Below are positions 21,001 through 51,000 of a stretch of DNA of 64,000 bases, piece by piece; position 1 is the first letter of the stretch; each line of letters opens with the position of its first letter. The position numbers were made by a program. This stretch comes from Ophelia neglecta (taxonomy: Eukaryota): positions 5,952,001 through 6,016,000 of the forward strand of contig OZ260665.1 in NCBI GenBank assembly GCA_965285935.1, given 5' to 3'.

Positions 21001-24000
21001 ATCGTAGATGTAAGGTAGGTGTTAATTTATTTGTTTCTTTTGCGGTCGGAAAATACCGGCAATGTAAAGAGTTTAACTGTCTTCAGCGAGACACATAAGG
21101 GCTACTCATCTGACTTAACTGGGAGTGAAAACGAAGGAAAATTGGATTCCTCGAACTGTTTATTCTGCTACTGCAAGTGAAAATATCGAGTTATTGTCTT
21201 AACTACTTTTCAGCCGAATGGAGAAGAATCTACCTCAGGTTTTCTGCAGATTTCCAGAAACCTGTTTTTTTTTGCGTAGAGGTATAAACCCCTTTTCTTG
21301 ATTTAGATTGTTAAATATATTAAAGAAACTTGCTGAGCAGCTTTCCATATCACATCAAGTATGTGTATTCGTAAAAAGAGACGGTGATCAAGTGAGCCCG
21401 TTTTGTAATATCATTCTTCAGATTAAGGAAAACATAAACCTATTATCGATCAGCTGCGAACTTGGTTTTCCTTTCACCAGAATTAAGTTTAGGCCAACAT
21501 TGCCAGGTTGAAGAACAAATCTGTGTTTATGTGATATTTGTTGATTTTTATATGTATATTGGACATCAGAGTCCCCAATATGAGCGTTTTTGGTGCAGAA
21601 AAGAAAATGTGACCAGGTCTTCCGTGTCATATAATACCAAACAAACGAATGGTTATGCGTATGGACTATAGCCCAAATTATTAGACAACTACACAGGTCG
21701 TTAACTGGATAAGCAATTGCTTAGTGAAAAACTTCGGCCAATCAGTGTTCATATTGCTAAGCACAGCTCATTGCTGATCATGATTTTTTTTACGTTTTAC
21801 ATTCTCTTTGCATATGTAAGTGCAGTGGGACTGGGCCTTTACATTATAGTGTGTGACCTGCCCATATGTACAGGTCCGCGGTACACATATCATTGTGGAC
21901 AATTAATCCATGGTACATTGGTCAACGGTCAACGATAGTGCACTATTACCTTGGGTGAGAAAGTGTGATTCCCATGAAGAAATTGACAGCAGTGCCAGAG
22001 TACGCTTCTAAATCTGATCAGAATGATTATTAGGAAGACGCTCGAAAATTTCAGATAAAAAATGAACTGAGTGGATTAAATTGAGTAGGCCCAAGATGTG
22101 AAGCAAGTTTAACGATTCCAGCAATTTTCAAAATCGAGACAACAAATTCAAGAGCATTACGCAAACGCACAACGCCAGCCTGAATTTAACATGCATCCCT
22201 TTGAGCGCTGCGCTAGGCGAAACAGGAAAACAACGAAATCTTGGCACTTCATTCATACTGGAAACCTATGGAACTAAGTTTGTTTTGGACACAGCATTTT
22301 AGTACACTACTTTATGAGCAACACAACGAAAGTCAGGTCTATGATAATACATTTGAATCTAAAATAAATGAGGTAGTTCATGGGCATAATGATCTAGACT
22401 TAATAGATGAGCCAATTAGCTTCGAAGAATTAGATACCGCCATAAATCTTCCAATTAGCAAAGCGACCGGTAGGGATAAGGTATGTTATGAGCATTTGAA
22501 ATATTCCAGTTTGTTTTGTAGAGTTCAATTGTGCTCCTTATTTTTAGTCACTATCTAGACTAGGCCTACCATCTCTAAAGTGCGTAGTGATGACAGCTGG
22601 ATGTAACCTACAGCGAAAACCTTTTCGGTTTTTTGTTAATCTAAATACTTCATTTGTCGTGATTCAGACTTACATACTTGTGGAAGATGAATATATACTT
22701 TTACAAGCCTCGTCTTTATCACAGGTGCCATTGCCAATACCTTGCCAGTGTCATTGCGACGCTCTTATATGGCATATTCTATGTTCAGGAATCGAGAAAA
22801 CACTGTATGTATTAAATTTAACTTTCATGTACAATTTGACAGTAAATCATCAACAATTTAGTGAGCTTTTCTTTTTATCTTTATGTGAAATTTATTAGTT
22901 GCCACTTTTCTAGACAACTTCCATCTTAACCTTTCAAAGAACCTTACATATTGCAAATATTGATAGCTGGGCTCTTTCAGTAAATCAAGTACGTTCTAAC
23001 CTACGATATTTGCCGTTGTGTGGGATGAGAAAGTAGTAGAGTACAGCTAATGCATATATGAAGGCCGAGAGCAGTAAGCCAGCTAAAGCCAGCTAAAGGT
23101 AACAGTTTGCTACCTAAAATTATGTCCGACTTTATGAAGAAAAGTACAAGAAAAGAATGCAGAGTCGAAACCCTACTTCATATAGTGGATCCTTGCTTTT
23201 TATTACAACATTGGTACATATGGTATTCATATAGTACAAAGTTAAGTTATATAATAATATGTCCTCAATATAGATGTTTAGGCTTAATAAGTCGGGTGAA
23301 CGAAAACAGATAATTTGATTTATTTACTCCTTTCCCAGTATGAAAAAAAAATTTAAAACAAGGTTATATTAATTAAGTTTTATTGTTGATTTTGTATTAC
23401 ACAATGTAGCAAATGCATTCCAATAAACTGTACGATTAATATATAAGATGCACCAATGTTTAATTTGGTAGTCGATGCAGTATTTTGGCACATCGCTTTG
23501 ATTAAAAGCCATTTACATAAGATTAGTTCCTCTATACTTAATTAAAATATAATTGAATAAATTAATACGTGTAAGTACGAAAAAGATTATGGAAGCTGAA
23601 AGCCTTGATTCCTTTTTAATTTTTCGACATGTAGTGTTGTTTAAAAAAATCATTAAAAACATTTTACAAAAATATAGATCGTCGTACACATGAATAATGT
23701 GTAACTAGTAAATTCAAGTACATTTTATTTTAGTATATAACTTTATTTAGGTAATTGGTCCGGAAATAAGTCCCCCCTTGATACACAGGGGAATTATAGG
23801 AAAAACTGGTTGTATCTGCGTCTGGGGTCTTATCCGAAGACGATTTGGCCCTGTTCATACAAATCCTAGTGATTATGATGATTAAAGCGATTACACCAAT
23901 CCCGCCTACAATACTCCCGACAATGATGTACACCAAAGAGTTGTTCGCTGTTTGAGCCACTGTGATGAAAAGTGAACAAGTCAGCCAAACATTAAAGGTT

Positions 24001-48000: not shown

Positions 48001-51000
48001 AGGCGATCTCAGCACACGTGTTTTTTTTACCAGTGTTCATGAATTTGGCCCAATTAACGCATTCTCTTAATAAGCATATAGAATATTCTAACCCTCACTT
48101 TCCTTAACTCCGCACACGACTTTTTCTACCAGTGTTCATGAACTTGGCCCAACGCATTCTTTCAAAAAAGCGTTTAAAATATTCTAACCCTCACTTTCCT
48201 TATCGCAATACGTACAGAGACTTGCGCTATGTTAATAACCCTGACACCGATAATAACCCTACCCTAACCCGACGGTCGATGTCGATGTTGGCAGAGATTA
48301 CCGAAAAAGACATAATTTTAATGATATTTAAACGAAATGTAAATAGTTTTGGATTAGAATGTAAAGAACGCTTATGAGCGATGGTGAAGGTTATACACAA
48401 GGCACATCGTCATTACATCCAAATCAAGTAACAGGGACTACTGGTGGAATATAGACGGTGGCGGATCCAGGATTTCAGGAAGGGGAGGGGAAATTTTCCA
48501 AAGGCCAATGTCTGGATTACCAACCCTCTGAAACCACCTTACGAAAGTCCGGAAATAGGCAAAAGGGGGGGGGGTGGTCCCCTGCACCCCCCCCCCCCCT
48601 AAATCCGCCACTGATAGACATGCCGCCCTACTGGTATCCATTGAATTTGCGGCTGCCATAGATCGCTCCATTAATTTCTGTGTAAATTGATTGTAACCGC
48701 TTTCTTCGTCTAAGCCAGACACTGGGCTATCATCTCGGAGCTGGTTTCAATCCACGGGTACCACTTAACTTCCCTCATGTTCCCCTTATTTTACCCGCAA
48801 ATAGGCGCAGCTTCCACGCAAATGGGCTGGACATCAACCCCGTGACTCTCCGTACTCGTCCCGCTCTTATCAGTCGGTAATAAAAACACGCAATTCCCCA
48901 TGTATAAGATGGTTTACTGCCGATGATGTATTGGGTGTCATATACCGGACCAAGTATAAAGAAACAATATTCAGATTATTTCTGCGGAAATCATACACGG
49001 CAAGCAAGCGGCATGGACCGTCTGTCTTCAGTGTGTAGATCGGGCAACCTAGAGCTATAGCTATAGGTGTATTATGATTTGCCAACATCCCTGGACTATA
49101 TTACCCTTTCCTTACAGATTTTCGATAACTTAAACCGACTTCTTAAACCACCATTCTGTTTTACCAGAAAATCGCATGGCTAGTATACTTAAATGTGATG
49201 ATCATGACATGTCTATGGAATTATCCTATATTGATGAGCAATTTATTATGAAGTCACACAGATTTGTTTCCTAATGACCTCATTGTCAATTTAAATTTAT
49301 TCCACGTTGAATTCCGATTAAAATTGGGATTCATGTGTGAGTCATTTGTTTCGACAATGGCAAGTCATTAATTTGAGTTTTTCGATGTATCTTTGTCTTG
49401 TTAACAGTCTCGTTGACCAGCGAGCCTGACCAACCCACTGGAGTTCTCTGGTGAACGGCCGGTGATTAGGATGGCATGAATTACTAGCCGAACACTGGCG
49501 GTCGACGCTCCTAAACCGACACTCCTGCCGGCGTGTCCGGGCCGCCGAACAACTCGTGTCAGGCAGGCCCGTGACCGCTTCAGAGTTCCAGTAGGCTACA
49601 CCGCGTCAGTCTCCAGTTTGGTGGTCGGCAGTGAACACGTTTTTTTTATACCCAGCCCACCTTCTCCCTTTTTTTTTCTTTTTCTTCTCTTTCTCTCAAT
49701 AAGGTCACGCTTTAGTTTGTTCATTTTTTTCTGTAAATACAGACTGATTCGCAATTGCCCCTGTTTGTATTTGAATTGTTGTAAGGGCCGTTTTAATAAT
49801 TACTACATTCAGTAATGAAAAATATGTTTGGTTTTTTAGCTATGCGCCAACAACTCGTTATGTTACGTTATTAAAGCTTCCTCAATGCCCCCACGGTAGA
49901 TTCCAGAATAGTGTTCCCCTTTAAAAAAAAACAATATTAATGTTGTCTAAATGTGGTCAATTGCTCTTGTAATGTACTGATTATAAGTGGCCCATTTGTC
50001 TAATTACTTATTGTAAAGAGCCTGCCGTAGTTTTGATGTCATCAATAGTATCTCCATGATTTTGCTAAGCGGTCCCCCAGTCCTTTTTGGCACTGTAGTG
50101 TATGCCTTGAACCGCGGGGCGCCTGTCCGCTGCGGCCTGTGTATAACTAGTTATGCATGGTTTGCGTCTGTGTGGTTGACAAACAAAGAACACCCCATTA
50201 TAGAGCTCTTCATGCTTACCTGGTTCAGGTGCTTTGTTCTACCATCATCATATATCTTGCAATACTATCAGATCTAATGTATTTGTATTATCATCAGTTG
50301 TGTCTCATTTTGATCAACAAGTGACTATCGTTATATTTTGTTGTAAATAATAGACTATTTCACAAATAGTTTGTTAGAATGGGTTTTTCATTTTCTTTAT
50401 TCACCAGTTTTTGGACTACTGTATTGATTATACTTATTATTGTATTTACATGTCCCATCATATCACTCCATTCCAGCTTCTTGGTGTTTTGAACTTAGTG
50501 ACTTGGCAGACAAATCGCACCTAATGTCAGTATACTTGTAAAAATTGTCTCAATGATTTATGTGGGAAATTGACCAACATGGACAAAGCACAGTGCAAAC
50601 GCATTCATGAACCTAAGTATAGTTTACGGGTTTTGTTTATCAATGTTCAAATCATCACTAGAATACTACAATATCTATACAACGCGCCACAAAAATATAT
50701 ATGAATGCAAAATTTCACTCACCATTGTCAATCGACAGTAAGGCCGTTTGTGGAGACGGCTGTGGGTGTATTTTCTTTCGTTTGACATGTTGGTGGGGAT
50801 TTCTGAACTTCTCTCTAGCATCAGACGCCGTGATGAAGAGAAATACCGAAATCTGATACAGTTTTGCGAAATCTGAAAGAGTTAATGTTTGAGGTATTTG
50901 ATACATACTCATGAATATCGACTGCCCAAAAAACATAGCAAACTTGTGCACCACATGTCATAGACAGAAAAAAGGAAGAATTGAATCAATTCGATAAACA

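What the first reader, a model, noticed from the sequence alone, without database searches (positions are those of the whole stretch)
23730..50725. Uncharacterised EGF-only surface receptor with a long stalk of near-identical repeats
Seen: signal peptide, one distinct N-terminal EGF, 18 closely similar EGF modules, 4 divergent membrane-proximal EGFs, a TM helix and a ~45-aa tail with FSYNSPVY (NPxY-like). No DSL, LNR, TB, ZP or LamG domain is visible, so it does not match Notch, Delta, fibrillin, uromodulin or Crumbs architecture. Inference: a calcium-stiffened rod of tunable length presenting a tip domain, with a possible role in adhesion, self/non-self or gamete recognition, or biomineralisation (acidic DDDE repeats).
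Basis: partly seen in the sequence, partly recalled or inferred. Interest (0 to 1): 0.72.

Follow-up and report, generated by a model that had tools for sequence, protein, structure and literature searches.

The report
Annelid-type EGF-only membrane stalk protein
The window really holds a gene for a single-pass membrane protein whose outer part is a chain of 23 EGF modules, 18 of them nearly identical and recently multiplied, but this is an ordinary kind of animal surface protein, its start is uncertain, and its function can only be inferred.

Summary
The minus strand of 23730-44479 holds 23 six-cysteine EGF exons: 1 tip, 18 near-identical and 4 divergent. All have AG/GT borders in phase 1. 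A last exon follows with a 23-residue membrane helix, a 45-residue Tyr-rich tail, a stop and AATAAA. None of 30 shuffles gave a single EGF match.

The 18 stalk exons differ mostly at synonymous sites (pS 0.21, pN 0.04), and paralogous introns are 82-94% alike, so the array is under selection. The last five copies are 98-99% alike including introns, so they are very recent.

Pfam calls the modules EGF_3. They sit at the EGF_CA cut-off and carry one extra residue in the calcium/hydroxylation loop. No other domain was found.

The weak point is the signal peptide. The ATG at 50725 cannot serve. The best candidate exon (50723-50912) fits in phase but has no other support. The tail has no relatives among 1.84 billion proteins, and NSPVY is not a canonical NPxY. 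The neighbouring gene points to an annelid.

Verdict: a real, lineage-restricted EGF-only type I membrane protein. It resembles Eater or DNER in design but belongs to neither family. Its function (adhesion/recognition stalk) is inferred. The biomineralisation reading is unsupported.

The parts
50723..50912 (-). Candidate first coding exon. It runs from ATG 50912 (alternative ATG 50936) to a donor ATG|GTGAGT in phase 1. It holds a hydrophobic stretch followed by Ser-Asp-Ala, then a basic, Pro-rich segment.
   Evidence: best phase-1 donor (8 of 9 consensus positions) among 7 candidates in 44480-56000. Unique within the window. Against it: no Pfam match and low language-model recognition of 1512.
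44480..50722 (-). Putative intron 1 (6.2 kb). It is richer in G+C than the gene body and carries transposon debris.
   Evidence: G+C is 0.41-0.43 here against 0.31-0.35 in the gene body. DDE_3 fragment on the + strand at 45580-45876; local duplications at 47147-47530 and 48008-48202.
44360..44479 (-). Tip EGF exon (120 nt, phase 1-1). It is of the non-calcium type and holds a CSSGPC motif and an N-Y-S sequon.
   Evidence: Pfam EGF PF00008, E 4.9e-05. Best solved relative is the N-terminal EGF of prostaglandin H synthase 2, E 1.1e-05.
43217..43333 (-). Stalk exon R1 (117 nt), the most divergent of the 18: 84-90% nucleotide identity to the others.
   Evidence: EGF_3 46.1 bits, EGF_CA 31.4 bits.
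42204..42326 (-). Stalk exon R2 (123 nt, phase 1-1, 'A/F' subtype).
41650..41772 (-). Stalk exon R3 (123 nt, 'T' subtype).
40517..40639 (-). Stalk exon R4.
39329..39451 (-). Stalk exon R5.
38776..38898 (-). Stalk exon R6.
37485..37607 (-). Stalk exon R7.
36929..37051 (-). Stalk exon R8.
35810..35932 (-). Stalk exon R9.
34628..34750 (-). Stalk exon R10.
34078..34200 (-). Stalk exon R11.
32936..33058 (-). Stalk exon R12.
32431..32553 (-). Stalk exon R13.
31735..31857 (-). Stalk exon R14, the first of the youngest block R14-R18.
30713..30835 (-). Stalk exon R15.
29355..29477 (-). Stalk exon R16 (identical in nucleotides to R18).
28333..28455 (-). Stalk exon R17.
26976..27098 (-). Stalk exon R18.
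26001..26120 (-). Divergent EGF D1, a canonical calcium-type module.
   Evidence: EGF_CA 35.0 bits, EGF_3 45.7 bits.
25646..25771 (-). Divergent EGF D2. It lacks the calcium motif and has a C2-x4-T-C3 site.
   Evidence: EGF_3 32.3 bits and no EGF_CA match.
25386..25505 (-). Divergent EGF D3, a canonical calcium-type module.
   Evidence: EGF_CA 39.7 bits.
24150..24275 (-). Divergent EGF D4, a canonical calcium-type module and the last one before the membrane.
   Evidence: EGF_CA 42.1 bits.
23730..23959 (-). Last exon. It codes a short juxtamembrane piece with an N-N-S sequon, the membrane helix (23868-23936), a 45-residue tail (23733-23867) with five Tyr in its last 22 residues including FSYNSPVY (23781-23804), and the TAA stop at 23730-23732.
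   Evidence: No Pfam family. Language-model look-alikes are C-terminal pieces of type I membrane proteins.
23724..23747 (-). Two AATAAA polyadenylation-type hexamers, at 23742-23747 and 23724-23729, on either side of the stop codon.
   Evidence: Read.

Best explanation
This is a functional, lineage-restricted gene, probably of an annelid, for a single-pass type I membrane glycoprotein. If the candidate first exon is right it codes about 1,079 residues.

The ectodomain consists only of EGF modules, each coded by its own phase-1 exon. There is one Notch/hEGF-like tip module, then 18 near-identical EGF_3/calcium-type modules, then 4 older divergent modules, three of which have a canonical calcium site. 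These are followed by about 9 juxtamembrane residues, the membrane helix and a 45-residue Tyr-rich tail.

Shown here: the exon anatomy; growth of the array by tandem duplication of 2- and 3-exon units, the latest very recent; and purifying selection on the coding parts.

Inferred: with one linker residue, an acidic calcium motif at the start of each module and a Gly-aromatic packing motif in the preceding one, the modules stack head to tail into a long, fairly stiff, calcium-dependent rod. If extended it would be tens of nanometres long (recalled from fibrillin and Notch work, not computed here). The rod would hold the distinct distal modules far from the membrane. The protein would then act as an adhesion or recognition receptor whose reach is set by exon number, with the tail tyrosines as docking or endocytosis signals. 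In design it works like Drosophila Eater or vertebrate DNER without being their relative.
For: Anatomy:
- 23 of 23 EGF-pattern matches in the window lie in one orientation and order; shuffles gave 0.
- All exons have AG/GT borders in phase 1 and no internal stops.
- The exon lengths sum to 3,240 nt, which is 1,080 codons (my arithmetic and the tip-exon borders read).
- Stop codon and AATAAA are present.

Module type:
- 22 of 108 minus-strand ORFs of 40 aa or more in 23004-44479 match EGF_3 above its cut-off. These are the 18 stalk and 4 divergent exons. No non-EGF family appears.
- The closest solved modules are uromodulin EGFs (E 1.7e-11), NELL2/NELL1, ADGRE5, Notch1 and fibrillin.

Selection:
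- Over 153 pairs of stalk exons, mean pS is 0.214 and mean pN is 0.041.
- Variable nucleotide columns by codon position are 7, 6 and 18.
- Paralogous introns are 82-94% identical, against 93-97% for the matching exons.

Recent growth:
- Paired introns in the R14-R18 block are 98.6% and 98.3% identical, and there are 0 synonymous differences among R14-R18.
- All array introns fall into homologous classes, whereas the five flanking introns are unique.

Rod features:
- 20 of 23 modules have the acidic start motif, and Gly31 plus Phe/Tyr is present in all modules.
- The role of Gly-aromatic packing is described in PMC3906135 (passages).

Membrane end:
- Language-model neighbours of the last exon are C-terminal pieces of MUC1 and of syndecan/neurexin-type tails, with recognition 2445.

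No other domain.
Against: - No transcript, orthologue or annotated protein could be found.
- The last exon had no relative in two libraries: one search gave none, and one search gave 2 hits at E 2e-05 and 2.9e-04, both unrelated repetitive proteins.
- The best match to a stalk exon was only 77% identical, so the genome's own proteins are not in the library.
- The first exon is weak. It has a long polar stretch before the hydrophobic core, poor start-codon context, recognition of 1512 with no usable look-alike, and an upstream AG that would allow it to be an internal exon.
- The stalk modules depart from the canonical calcium loop by one residue: 18 of 18 have 5 residues instead of 4. Only 9 of 18 reach the EGF_CA cut-off.
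- A single-module fold had only moderate confidence (pLDDT 68.7), and its structural matches, all EGF modules, were not significant (0 at E <= 0.001).
- Function is inferred from architecture alone.
Confidence: 0.6

Rival explanations
1. The model is incomplete at its 5' end. Further exons, either unrecognised in 50958-64000 or lying beyond the window, would add a non-EGF head such as a lectin, CUB or similar domain. The protein would then belong to another architecture class, and the 'tip EGF' would not be the tip.
For: The candidate first exon is weakly supported. An AG acceptor after a pyrimidine-rich run lies inside its open frame, so it could be an internal exon. The closest module-level hit, P0012 (77% identity), combines a C-type lectin domain with EGFs and a membrane helix. 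Only 13 kb of upstream sequence is available, and part of it is satellite.
Against: Upstream of the tip exon, 135 minus-strand ORFs of 33-69 aa in 44498-62650 were scanned and gave no credible family. The only hit was DUF2671 at E 0.0054, below its cut-off. The 23 short ORFs inside the satellite beyond 62647 were left out. The ORFs of 70 aa or more on both strands gave nothing on the minus strand either. The candidate exon has by far the best phase-1 donor and is followed by a hydrophobic stretch with small residues at -3 and -1.
Confidence: 0.2
2. The array is partly an artefact, or the gene is dead or dying. The near-identical youngest copies (R14-R18) would be an assembly duplication of haplotypes, and/or the locus is an untranscribed relic.
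For: The 2.4-kb units differ by only 1.4-1.7%, a level that allelic copies could also show (my inference). No expressed or annotated relative was found. The first intron is transposon-laden.
Against: All 24 downstream exons are intact with canonical splice sites. pN/pS is about 0.19 across 153 exon pairs, and exons are more conserved than introns. The older 13 copies differ enough (82-94% in introns) that they cannot be assembly duplicates. The window contains no N.
Confidence: 0.08
3. It is a non-canonical Notch-pathway or growth-factor-type ligand, in the manner of DNER or DLK1. It would signal through its EGF modules to a receptor on a neighbouring cell rather than serve as a stalk.
For: It has the same build: EGF-only ectodomain, one membrane helix and a short tail. 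[quoted passage not shown] The tip EGF has an O-glucose-type CxSxPC site as in Notch-type EGFs (consensus recalled). Notch1 EGF11-13 is among the solved relatives.
Against: No DSL or MNNL match was found. The tail and first exon have no relatives, so it is not an orthologue. Eighteen near-identical modules are a poor basis for specific ligand surfaces. The modules are of the EGF_3/uromodulin/NELL type rather than the hEGF type.
Confidence: 0.06
4. It is a secreted or shed matrix or biomineralisation protein that uses its acidic calcium sites to bind mineral.
For: Many Asp/Glu clusters and calcium-type EGFs are present. EGF proteins do occur in mollusc shell matrices (PMC9290575, passages).
Against: The acidic clusters are the ordinary start motif of calcium-type EGFs. 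The gene ends in a membrane helix and a cytoplasmic tail. Shell EGFL/EGFZP proteins have two EGFs plus a ZP or ZP-like domain, and no ZP was found here. The neighbouring gene points to an annelid rather than a mollusc.
Confidence: 0.04

Closest known systems
Drosophila Eater (Nimrod family phagocytic/adhesion receptor)
   Same: A single-pass membrane protein with an ectodomain made only of many EGF-like repeats (32), and a cytoplasmic tail with no identified domains (PMC4359741, passage). That most of Eater's repeats are very similar to one another is recalled, not seen in a call.
   Different: Eater's repeats are NIM repeats. 0 of 23 modules here fit a NIM-type pattern (pattern recalled), and they match EGF_3/EGF_CA instead. 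There is no sequence relation in the tail. The organism here is a spiralian, not an insect.
DNER and DLK1 (vertebrate EGF-only single-pass proteins)
   Same: A signal peptide, EGF repeats only, one membrane helix and a short tail. DNER has ten EGF-like repeats (PMC10200888, passage).
   Different: They have 10 or 6 dissimilar hEGF-type repeats, against 23 here, of which 18 are near-identical and of EGF_3 type. The tail search found no relative, so this gene is not an orthologue.
Calcium-binding EGF arrays of fibrillin/LTBP and Notch
   Same: One-residue linkers, an acidic start motif and Gly-aromatic interdomain packing, which together give rod-like pairs (PMC3906135, passages). Fibrillin and Notch1 EGFs are among the solved relatives.
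   Different: There are no TB, LNR or ANK domains. The stalk modules have 5 rather than 4 residues in the Asx loop. Unlike fibrillin, this protein is membrane-anchored.
Uromodulin EGF I-III and NELL1/NELL2 EGF modules (closest at module level)
   Same: They are the best solved sequence relatives of the stalk exon (E 1.7e-11 to 7.8e-09) and the top, though not significant, structural neighbours.
   Different: Uromodulin has a ZP polymerisation domain and a GPI anchor. NELL proteins are secreted, with TSPN and VWC domains (recalled). Neither has a long homogeneous array or a membrane helix of this kind.

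Membership tests
Multi-EGF type I membrane protein (architecture class) | Tandem six-cysteine EGF modules in the ectodomain | tested here: met
   23 pattern matches, all in one orientation. 22 match EGF_3 above its cut-off. The tip matches PF00008.
Multi-EGF type I membrane protein (architecture class) | C-terminal membrane helix followed by a cytoplasmic tail | tested here: met
   A 23-residue hydrophobic run is followed by Arg/Lys-rich residues and a 45-residue tail. 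The look-alikes are type I membrane protein C-termini (a lead only). No dedicated topology predictor was available.
Multi-EGF type I membrane protein (architecture class) | N-terminal signal peptide | tested here: inconclusive
   The candidate exon 50723-50912 is phase-compatible and has a hydrophobic core. Its recognition is low, and no signal-peptide predictor or transcript was available.
Calcium-binding EGF (Pfam EGF_CA; PROSITE-type consensus, recalled) | Acidic D/N-x-D/N-E/Q motif before Cys1 | tested here: met
   20 of 23 modules have it (R2-R18, D1, D3, D4). It is absent in the tip and D2 and partial in R1 (the first Asp comes from the split codon seen).
Calcium-binding EGF (Pfam EGF_CA; PROSITE-type consensus, recalled) | C-x-D/N-x(4)-F/Y-x-C-x-C loop (Asx hydroxylation/calcium ligand) | tested here: not met
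   Only 3 of 23 modules (D1, D3, D4) fit. All 18 stalk modules have x(5). This lowers the claim 'canonical cbEGF' for the stalk but does not exclude calcium binding.
Calcium-binding EGF (Pfam EGF_CA; PROSITE-type consensus, recalled) | Score at or above the Pfam gathering cut-off (27 bits) | tested here: inconclusive
   D1, D3 and D4 score 35.0-42.1 bits and R1 scores 31.4. R2-R18 score 23.9-28.8, and 8 of 17 reach 27.0 or more.
Notch receptors | LNR (Notch) repeats, NOD/heterodimerisation region and intracellular ANK repeats | tested here: not met
   No such Pfam family appears in any ORF scanned. Only about 9 residues lie between the last EGF and the helix, and the tail has only 45 residues.
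DSL ligands (Delta/Serrate/Jagged) | MNNL and DSL domains N-terminal to the EGFs | tested here: not met
   No match was found. This is limited by the uncertain 5' end.
Nimrod family (Eater, NimC) | NIM repeats (CxPxCxxxCxNGxC... consensus, recalled) | tested here: not met
   0 of 23 modules fit the pattern.
Draper/CED-1/MEGF10 | EMI domain, laminin-type EGFs and NPxY plus YxxL in the tail (recalled) | tested here: not met
   No EMI match was found. The tail has N-S-P-V-Y and no N-P-x-Y.
Crumbs | LamG domains among the EGFs and a conserved tail ending in ERLI (recalled) | tested here: not met
   No LamG match was found. The tail ends in V-I-Y.
Uromodulin / ZP proteins, mollusc EGFZP/EGFL | ZP (or ZP-like) domain after the EGFs | tested here: not met
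   No ZP match was found. The architecture of EGFZP/EGFL is taken from PMC9290575 passages.
Fibrillin/LTBP | TB (8-Cys) domains interspersed with cbEGFs; secreted | tested here: not met
   No TB match was found. A membrane helix is present.
DNER / DLK1 orthologues | Sequence relation outside the generic EGF modules (tail, N-terminus) | tested here: not met
   The last exon has no credible relative among 1.84 billion representatives or in the word-indexed library.
Adhesion GPCRs with EGF heads (ADGRE/CD97 type) | GAIN domain and seven membrane helices | tested here: not met
   There is one helix and then a stop. No GAIN or 7TM match was found.

The most novel reading that the evidence does not exclude
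An annelid surface receptor whose reach is set by a still-expanding array of near-identical calcium-type EGF exons that is probably polymorphic in copy number. It would be a convergent counterpart of Drosophila Eater built from a different EGF subtype, used for immune, adhesive or self/non-self recognition. It could serve as a natural test case of how stalk length tunes a receptor.
Probability: 0.15. Interest if true: 0.5.

Novelty: new member of a known kind. Interest (0 to 1): 0.3.

Why it matters
As it stands this is one more lineage-restricted multi-EGF membrane protein, a class that is abundant in marine invertebrate genomes, and it opens no long-standing question.

Its modest value lies in the clean record of how such genes grow. 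Symmetric phase-1 exons were copied in 2- and 3-exon blocks, coding sequence was kept under selection while introns drifted, and the last round is so recent that copy number may vary between individuals.

If expression and length variation were shown, it would be a convenient natural system for two questions. One is how the length of an EGF stalk affects adhesion or recognition. The other is how a chain of near-identical disulphide-rich modules folds without scrambling.

Tried and rejected
1. Read through, this ATG gives 16 codons and then a stop. Spliced at once it is in phase 0 and does not fit the phase-1 tip exon. Rejected.

2. Other first-exon candidates. Seven ATG-plus-hydrophobic-plus-phase-1-donor candidates were found in 44480-56000. 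The one at 47583-47484 has a weaker donor (6 of 9) and lies partly in a local duplicated repeat. The others have weak donors or no clear core.

3. Orthologue search with the membrane/tail exon. There was nothing in the word-indexed library. The exhaustive search gave two hits, which on inspection are unrelated repetitive proteins. Rejected as relatives.

4. The 17 proteins that share the stalk module. None shares the first exon or the tail, and none has the same build.

5. Language-model look-alikes. The tail gave type I membrane protein C-termini (score 0.90 and below, a lead only). The first exon gave no usable hit.

6. Single-module fold and structure search. pLDDT was 68.7. All top matches are EGF modules, but there were 0 at E <= 0.001, so this adds nothing beyond the sequence matches.

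7. Cyclooxygenase link. The tip EGF's best solved relatives are the N-terminal EGF of prostaglandin H synthase 2 (28.9 bits, against 26.2 for neurexin and 25.5 for Notch1). No peroxidase-type exon is present in the window. I treat this as a resemblance between EGF subtypes, not as a gene relation.

8. Rfam and tRNA scans of the window found nothing.

9. No binding prediction was run, because no partner is claimed.

Full report
WHAT IS THERE

The feature is a gene on the minus strand. A six-cysteine EGF pattern run over all six frames of the window gave 23 matches. All lie on the minus strand between 24154 and 44471 and none lies elsewhere. Thirty shuffles of the window gave no match at all.

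Read with their flanks, the matches are 23 separate exons, each with an AG acceptor and a GT donor in phase 1 (tip exon borders read). In gene order they are:
- a distinct distal module (44360-44479);
- 18 closely similar modules: R1 at 43217-43333, then R2 to R18 of 123 nt each, ending at 26976-27098;
- four divergent modules: D1 26001-26120, D2 25646-25771, D3 25386-25505 and D4 24150-24275.

The last exon (23730-23959) gives about nine residues, a 23-residue hydrophobic helix, a cluster of basic residues, and a tail of 45 residues with five tyrosines in its last 22 positions, including FSYNSPVY. The TAA stop is at 23730-23732, and AATAAA lies on either side of it.

The exon lengths, with the candidate first exon, add up to 3,240 nt, a multiple of three (my arithmetic).

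IS IT A LIVE GENE?

All exons are open and all splice sites are canonical.

Among the 18 stalk exons, nucleotide identity is 84-100%. Over 153 exon pairs the mean synonymous difference is 0.214 per site and the mean non-synonymous difference is 0.041. Variable columns fall 7, 6 and 18 on codon positions 1, 2 and 3.

Introns at paralogous positions are 82-94% identical, against 93-97% for the matching exons. Synonymous sites have therefore drifted about as far as introns, while the protein was held constant. That is purifying selection, not decay.

HOW THE ARRAY GREW

Intron lengths and sequences show a higher-order pattern. A three-exon unit, with introns of about 430, 1,000 and 1,060 nt, recurs through R2-R12. 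A two-exon unit, with introns of 899 and 1,235 nt, recurs through R14-R18.

The two copies of each intron in the young block are 98.6% and 98.3% identical, and R14-R18 show no synonymous difference. The five introns outside the array have no similarity to any other intron.

The array therefore grew by unequal tandem duplication of exon blocks, and the last round was very recent. Because every exon is symmetric in phase 1, gain, loss or skipping of any of them keeps the frame. This is the only support here for 'tunable length'. Variation between individuals was not testable.

WHAT KIND OF EGF?

Pfam places 22 modules in EGF_3, well above its cut-off (32.3-46.1 bits against 28.5). The tip matches only the generic EGF family.

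For the calcium-binding family the picture is mixed:
- D1, D3 and D4 score 35-42 bits and R1 scores 31.4.
- R2-R18 score 23.9-28.8 bits around the cut-off of 27, and 8 of 17 reach it.
- 20 of 23 modules begin with the acidic motif. The first Asp is the split codon at each junction, so only one residue (Thr) separates the last Cys of one module from the motif of the next.
- All 18 stalk modules have five rather than four residues between the Asn and the aromatic residue of the hydroxylation/calcium loop. Only D1, D3 and D4 fit the canonical spacing (consensus recalled).
- An invariant Gly followed by Phe or Tyr sits between Cys5 and Cys6 of every module. This is the position of the Gly-aromatic motif that packs against the next calcium-type EGF in fibrillin-type pairs (PMC3906135, passages).

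The closest solved modules are uromodulin EGF I-III, NELL2 and NELL1, then ADGRE5, Notch1 and fibrillin.

A rod stiffened by calcium is therefore a reasonable inference. It is not shown, and the stalk modules are not textbook calcium-binding EGFs. The 'acidic DDDE repeats' are this start motif and nothing more.

THE 5' END

This is the weak part of the observation. The stated end, 50725, is the A of an ATG followed directly by GTGAGT. As a start codon it fails. Read through, it stops after 16 codons. Spliced at once, it is in phase 0, whereas the tip exon needs phase 1.

The same donor does close, in phase 1, an 80-codon open frame with ATGs at 50936, 50912 and 50906. That frame holds a 9-12-residue hydrophobic stretch followed by Ser-Asp-Ala and then a basic, proline-rich segment. 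Among seven candidates between 44480 and 56000 it has by far the best donor, at 8 of 9 consensus positions. It is also unique within the window, whereas the runner-up at 47583 sits partly in a local repeat.

Against it:
- about 20 polar residues precede the hydrophobic core;
- the start-codon context is poor;
- a language-model recognition score of 1512 is in the range of non-proteins, and there was no usable look-alike;
- an AG acceptor after a pyrimidine run lies inside the frame, so it could be an internal exon.

The 6.2-kb gap to the tip exon is richer in G+C and carries a Tc1/mariner-type DDE_3 fragment and local duplications.

I put the candidate at about even odds.

OTHER DOMAINS, NEIGHBOURS AND SOURCE

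Pfam scans gave no family other than the EGF families inside the gene, and none upstream on the minus strand apart from one sub-threshold chance hit. The scans were:
- 109 of the window's 151 ORFs of 70 aa or more on both strands; the other 42, inside the gene body, were covered;
- 135 of 158 minus-strand ORFs of 33-69 aa upstream of the tip exon; the 23 inside the satellite beyond 62647 were left out;
- 108 minus-strand ORFs of 40 aa or more across the gene body;
- the six plus-strand ORFs of 70 aa or more inside it.

On the plus strand, 5984-11594 holds exons of a Cys-loop ligand-gated channel, and 13448-14206 holds a retroelement integrase fragment.

The channel exon's best named relatives are from the annelids Paralvinella palmiformis (73%) and Dimorphilus gyrociliatus (70%). 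Molluscs are at about 50-55%. The window is therefore most likely from an annelid whose proteins are not in the libraries. I do not take it for human.

RELATIVES

The membrane/tail exon found nothing in the word-indexed library. It found only two unrelated repetitive proteins among 1.84 billion representatives.

A stalk exon found 17 multi-EGF proteins from a sea urchin, an abalone, a tunicate, a brittle star, myxobacteria and unnamed sources, at no more than 77% identity. None shares the first exon or the tail, and none has the same build.

The last exon's language-model neighbours are C-terminal pieces of type I membrane proteins such as MUC1 and syndecan/neurexin-type tails (a lead only).

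HOW IT MOST LIKELY WORKS

Shown: an EGF-only ectodomain, a membrane anchor, a short Tyr-rich tail, an array under selection and a recent gain in length.

Inferred:
- The modules form an extended, calcium-dependent stalk of tens of nanometres (module length recalled from fibrillin and Notch work).
- The stalk presents the distinct distal end. That end comprises the tip EGF, which has an O-glucose-type CxSxPC site and an N-glycosylation sequon, and the divergent R1.
- The tail tyrosines serve as docking or uptake signals.

NSPVY has a Ser between the Asn and the Pro, so it is not a canonical NPxY. There is no room for a cleavage module between the last EGF and the helix. An adhesion or recognition role is the best guess, and I hold it at modest confidence.

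COMPARISON WITH WHAT IS KNOWN

In design the nearest things are Drosophila Eater and vertebrate DNER. Eater has 32 EGF-like/NIM repeats, a helix and a tail with no identified domains (PMC4359741, passage). [quoted passage not shown]

Membership of either family fails. No module fits a NIM pattern, and the unique ends have no relatives.

Notch, DSL ligands, Crumbs, Draper/MEGF10, ZP proteins, fibrillin/LTBP and adhesion GPCRs each lack their defining domain here.

Mollusc shell EGF proteins have two EGFs plus a ZP or ZP-like domain (PMC9290575, passages), so the biomineralisation reading has no architectural support.

My literature searches turned up no description of a protein like this in annelids. 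They were few and keyword-based, and supplements were closed.

LIMITS

So no whole-protein search, signal-peptide or topology prediction, or multi-module fold was done.

A single-module fold reached only pLDDT 68.7. Its structural neighbours, all EGF modules, were not significant.

No eukaryotic genome or transcript collection was available. Expression, orthologues in related annelids, copy-number variation and the correctness of the assembly in R14-R18 therefore stay unchecked. The closed metagenome and viral collections do not bear on this case.

VERDICT

This is a real and well-described locus with an ordinary kind of product: a new, lineage-restricted member of the multi-EGF type I membrane proteins. 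Its points of interest are a cleanly readable, still-growing exon array and an unresolved 5' end.

Noticed in passing
window 5984-11594, + strand: Exons of a Cys-loop ligand-gated ion channel (nicotinic-receptor type), convergent with the EGF gene. Neur_chan_LBD matches lie in ORFs 5984-6205, 10175-10492 and 11271-11594, and the last of these also holds the start of Neur_chan_memb. The best named relatives are annelid proteins at 70-73% identity.
   Followed up: partly
window 13448-14206, + strand: A 253-codon open frame with Integrase_H2C2 and rve matches: a retroelement integrase fragment between the two genes.
   Followed up: no
window 45580-45876, + strand: A DDE_3 (Tc1/mariner-type transposase) fragment inside the putative first intron. 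The whole stretch 44000-50000 is richer in G+C (0.41-0.43) than the gene body.
   Followed up: no
window 62713-63797 (continuing to 63997): A satellite of 95-bp units, 11.4 copies at 94% identity, built of 21-bp sub-repeats and running to the end of the window.
   Followed up: no
window 56327-57137: Purine- and G-rich repeats: a 163-bp unit in 2.1 copies, GGAGGG in 6.8 copies, and 18- and 36-bp units. They give a G/C skew of 0.49 in 56001-58000.
   Followed up: no
window 44360-44479, - strand: The tip EGF's best solved relatives are the N-terminal EGF of prostaglandin H synthase 2 (cyclooxygenase-2), at E 1.1e-05. These rank ahead of neurexin and Notch1 EGFs. No peroxidase-type exon is present in the window.
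   Followed up: partly
window 26976-43333, - strand (all 18 stalk exons): Every stalk module has one extra residue (T-P-A/P-G-S) in the Asx-hydroxylation/calcium loop compared with the three canonical membrane-proximal modules. It is a fixed, array-wide departure from the textbook consensus.
   Followed up: partly
window 24722-24937: A 45-bp tandem repeat, 2-3 copies at about 80% identity, inside the intron between D3 and D4.
   Followed up: no
window 46430-46462 and 51837-51878: Long C-rich runs (ACCCCCCCCCCCCC-type units) that match each other. They are possibly tails of the same repeat family.
   Followed up: no
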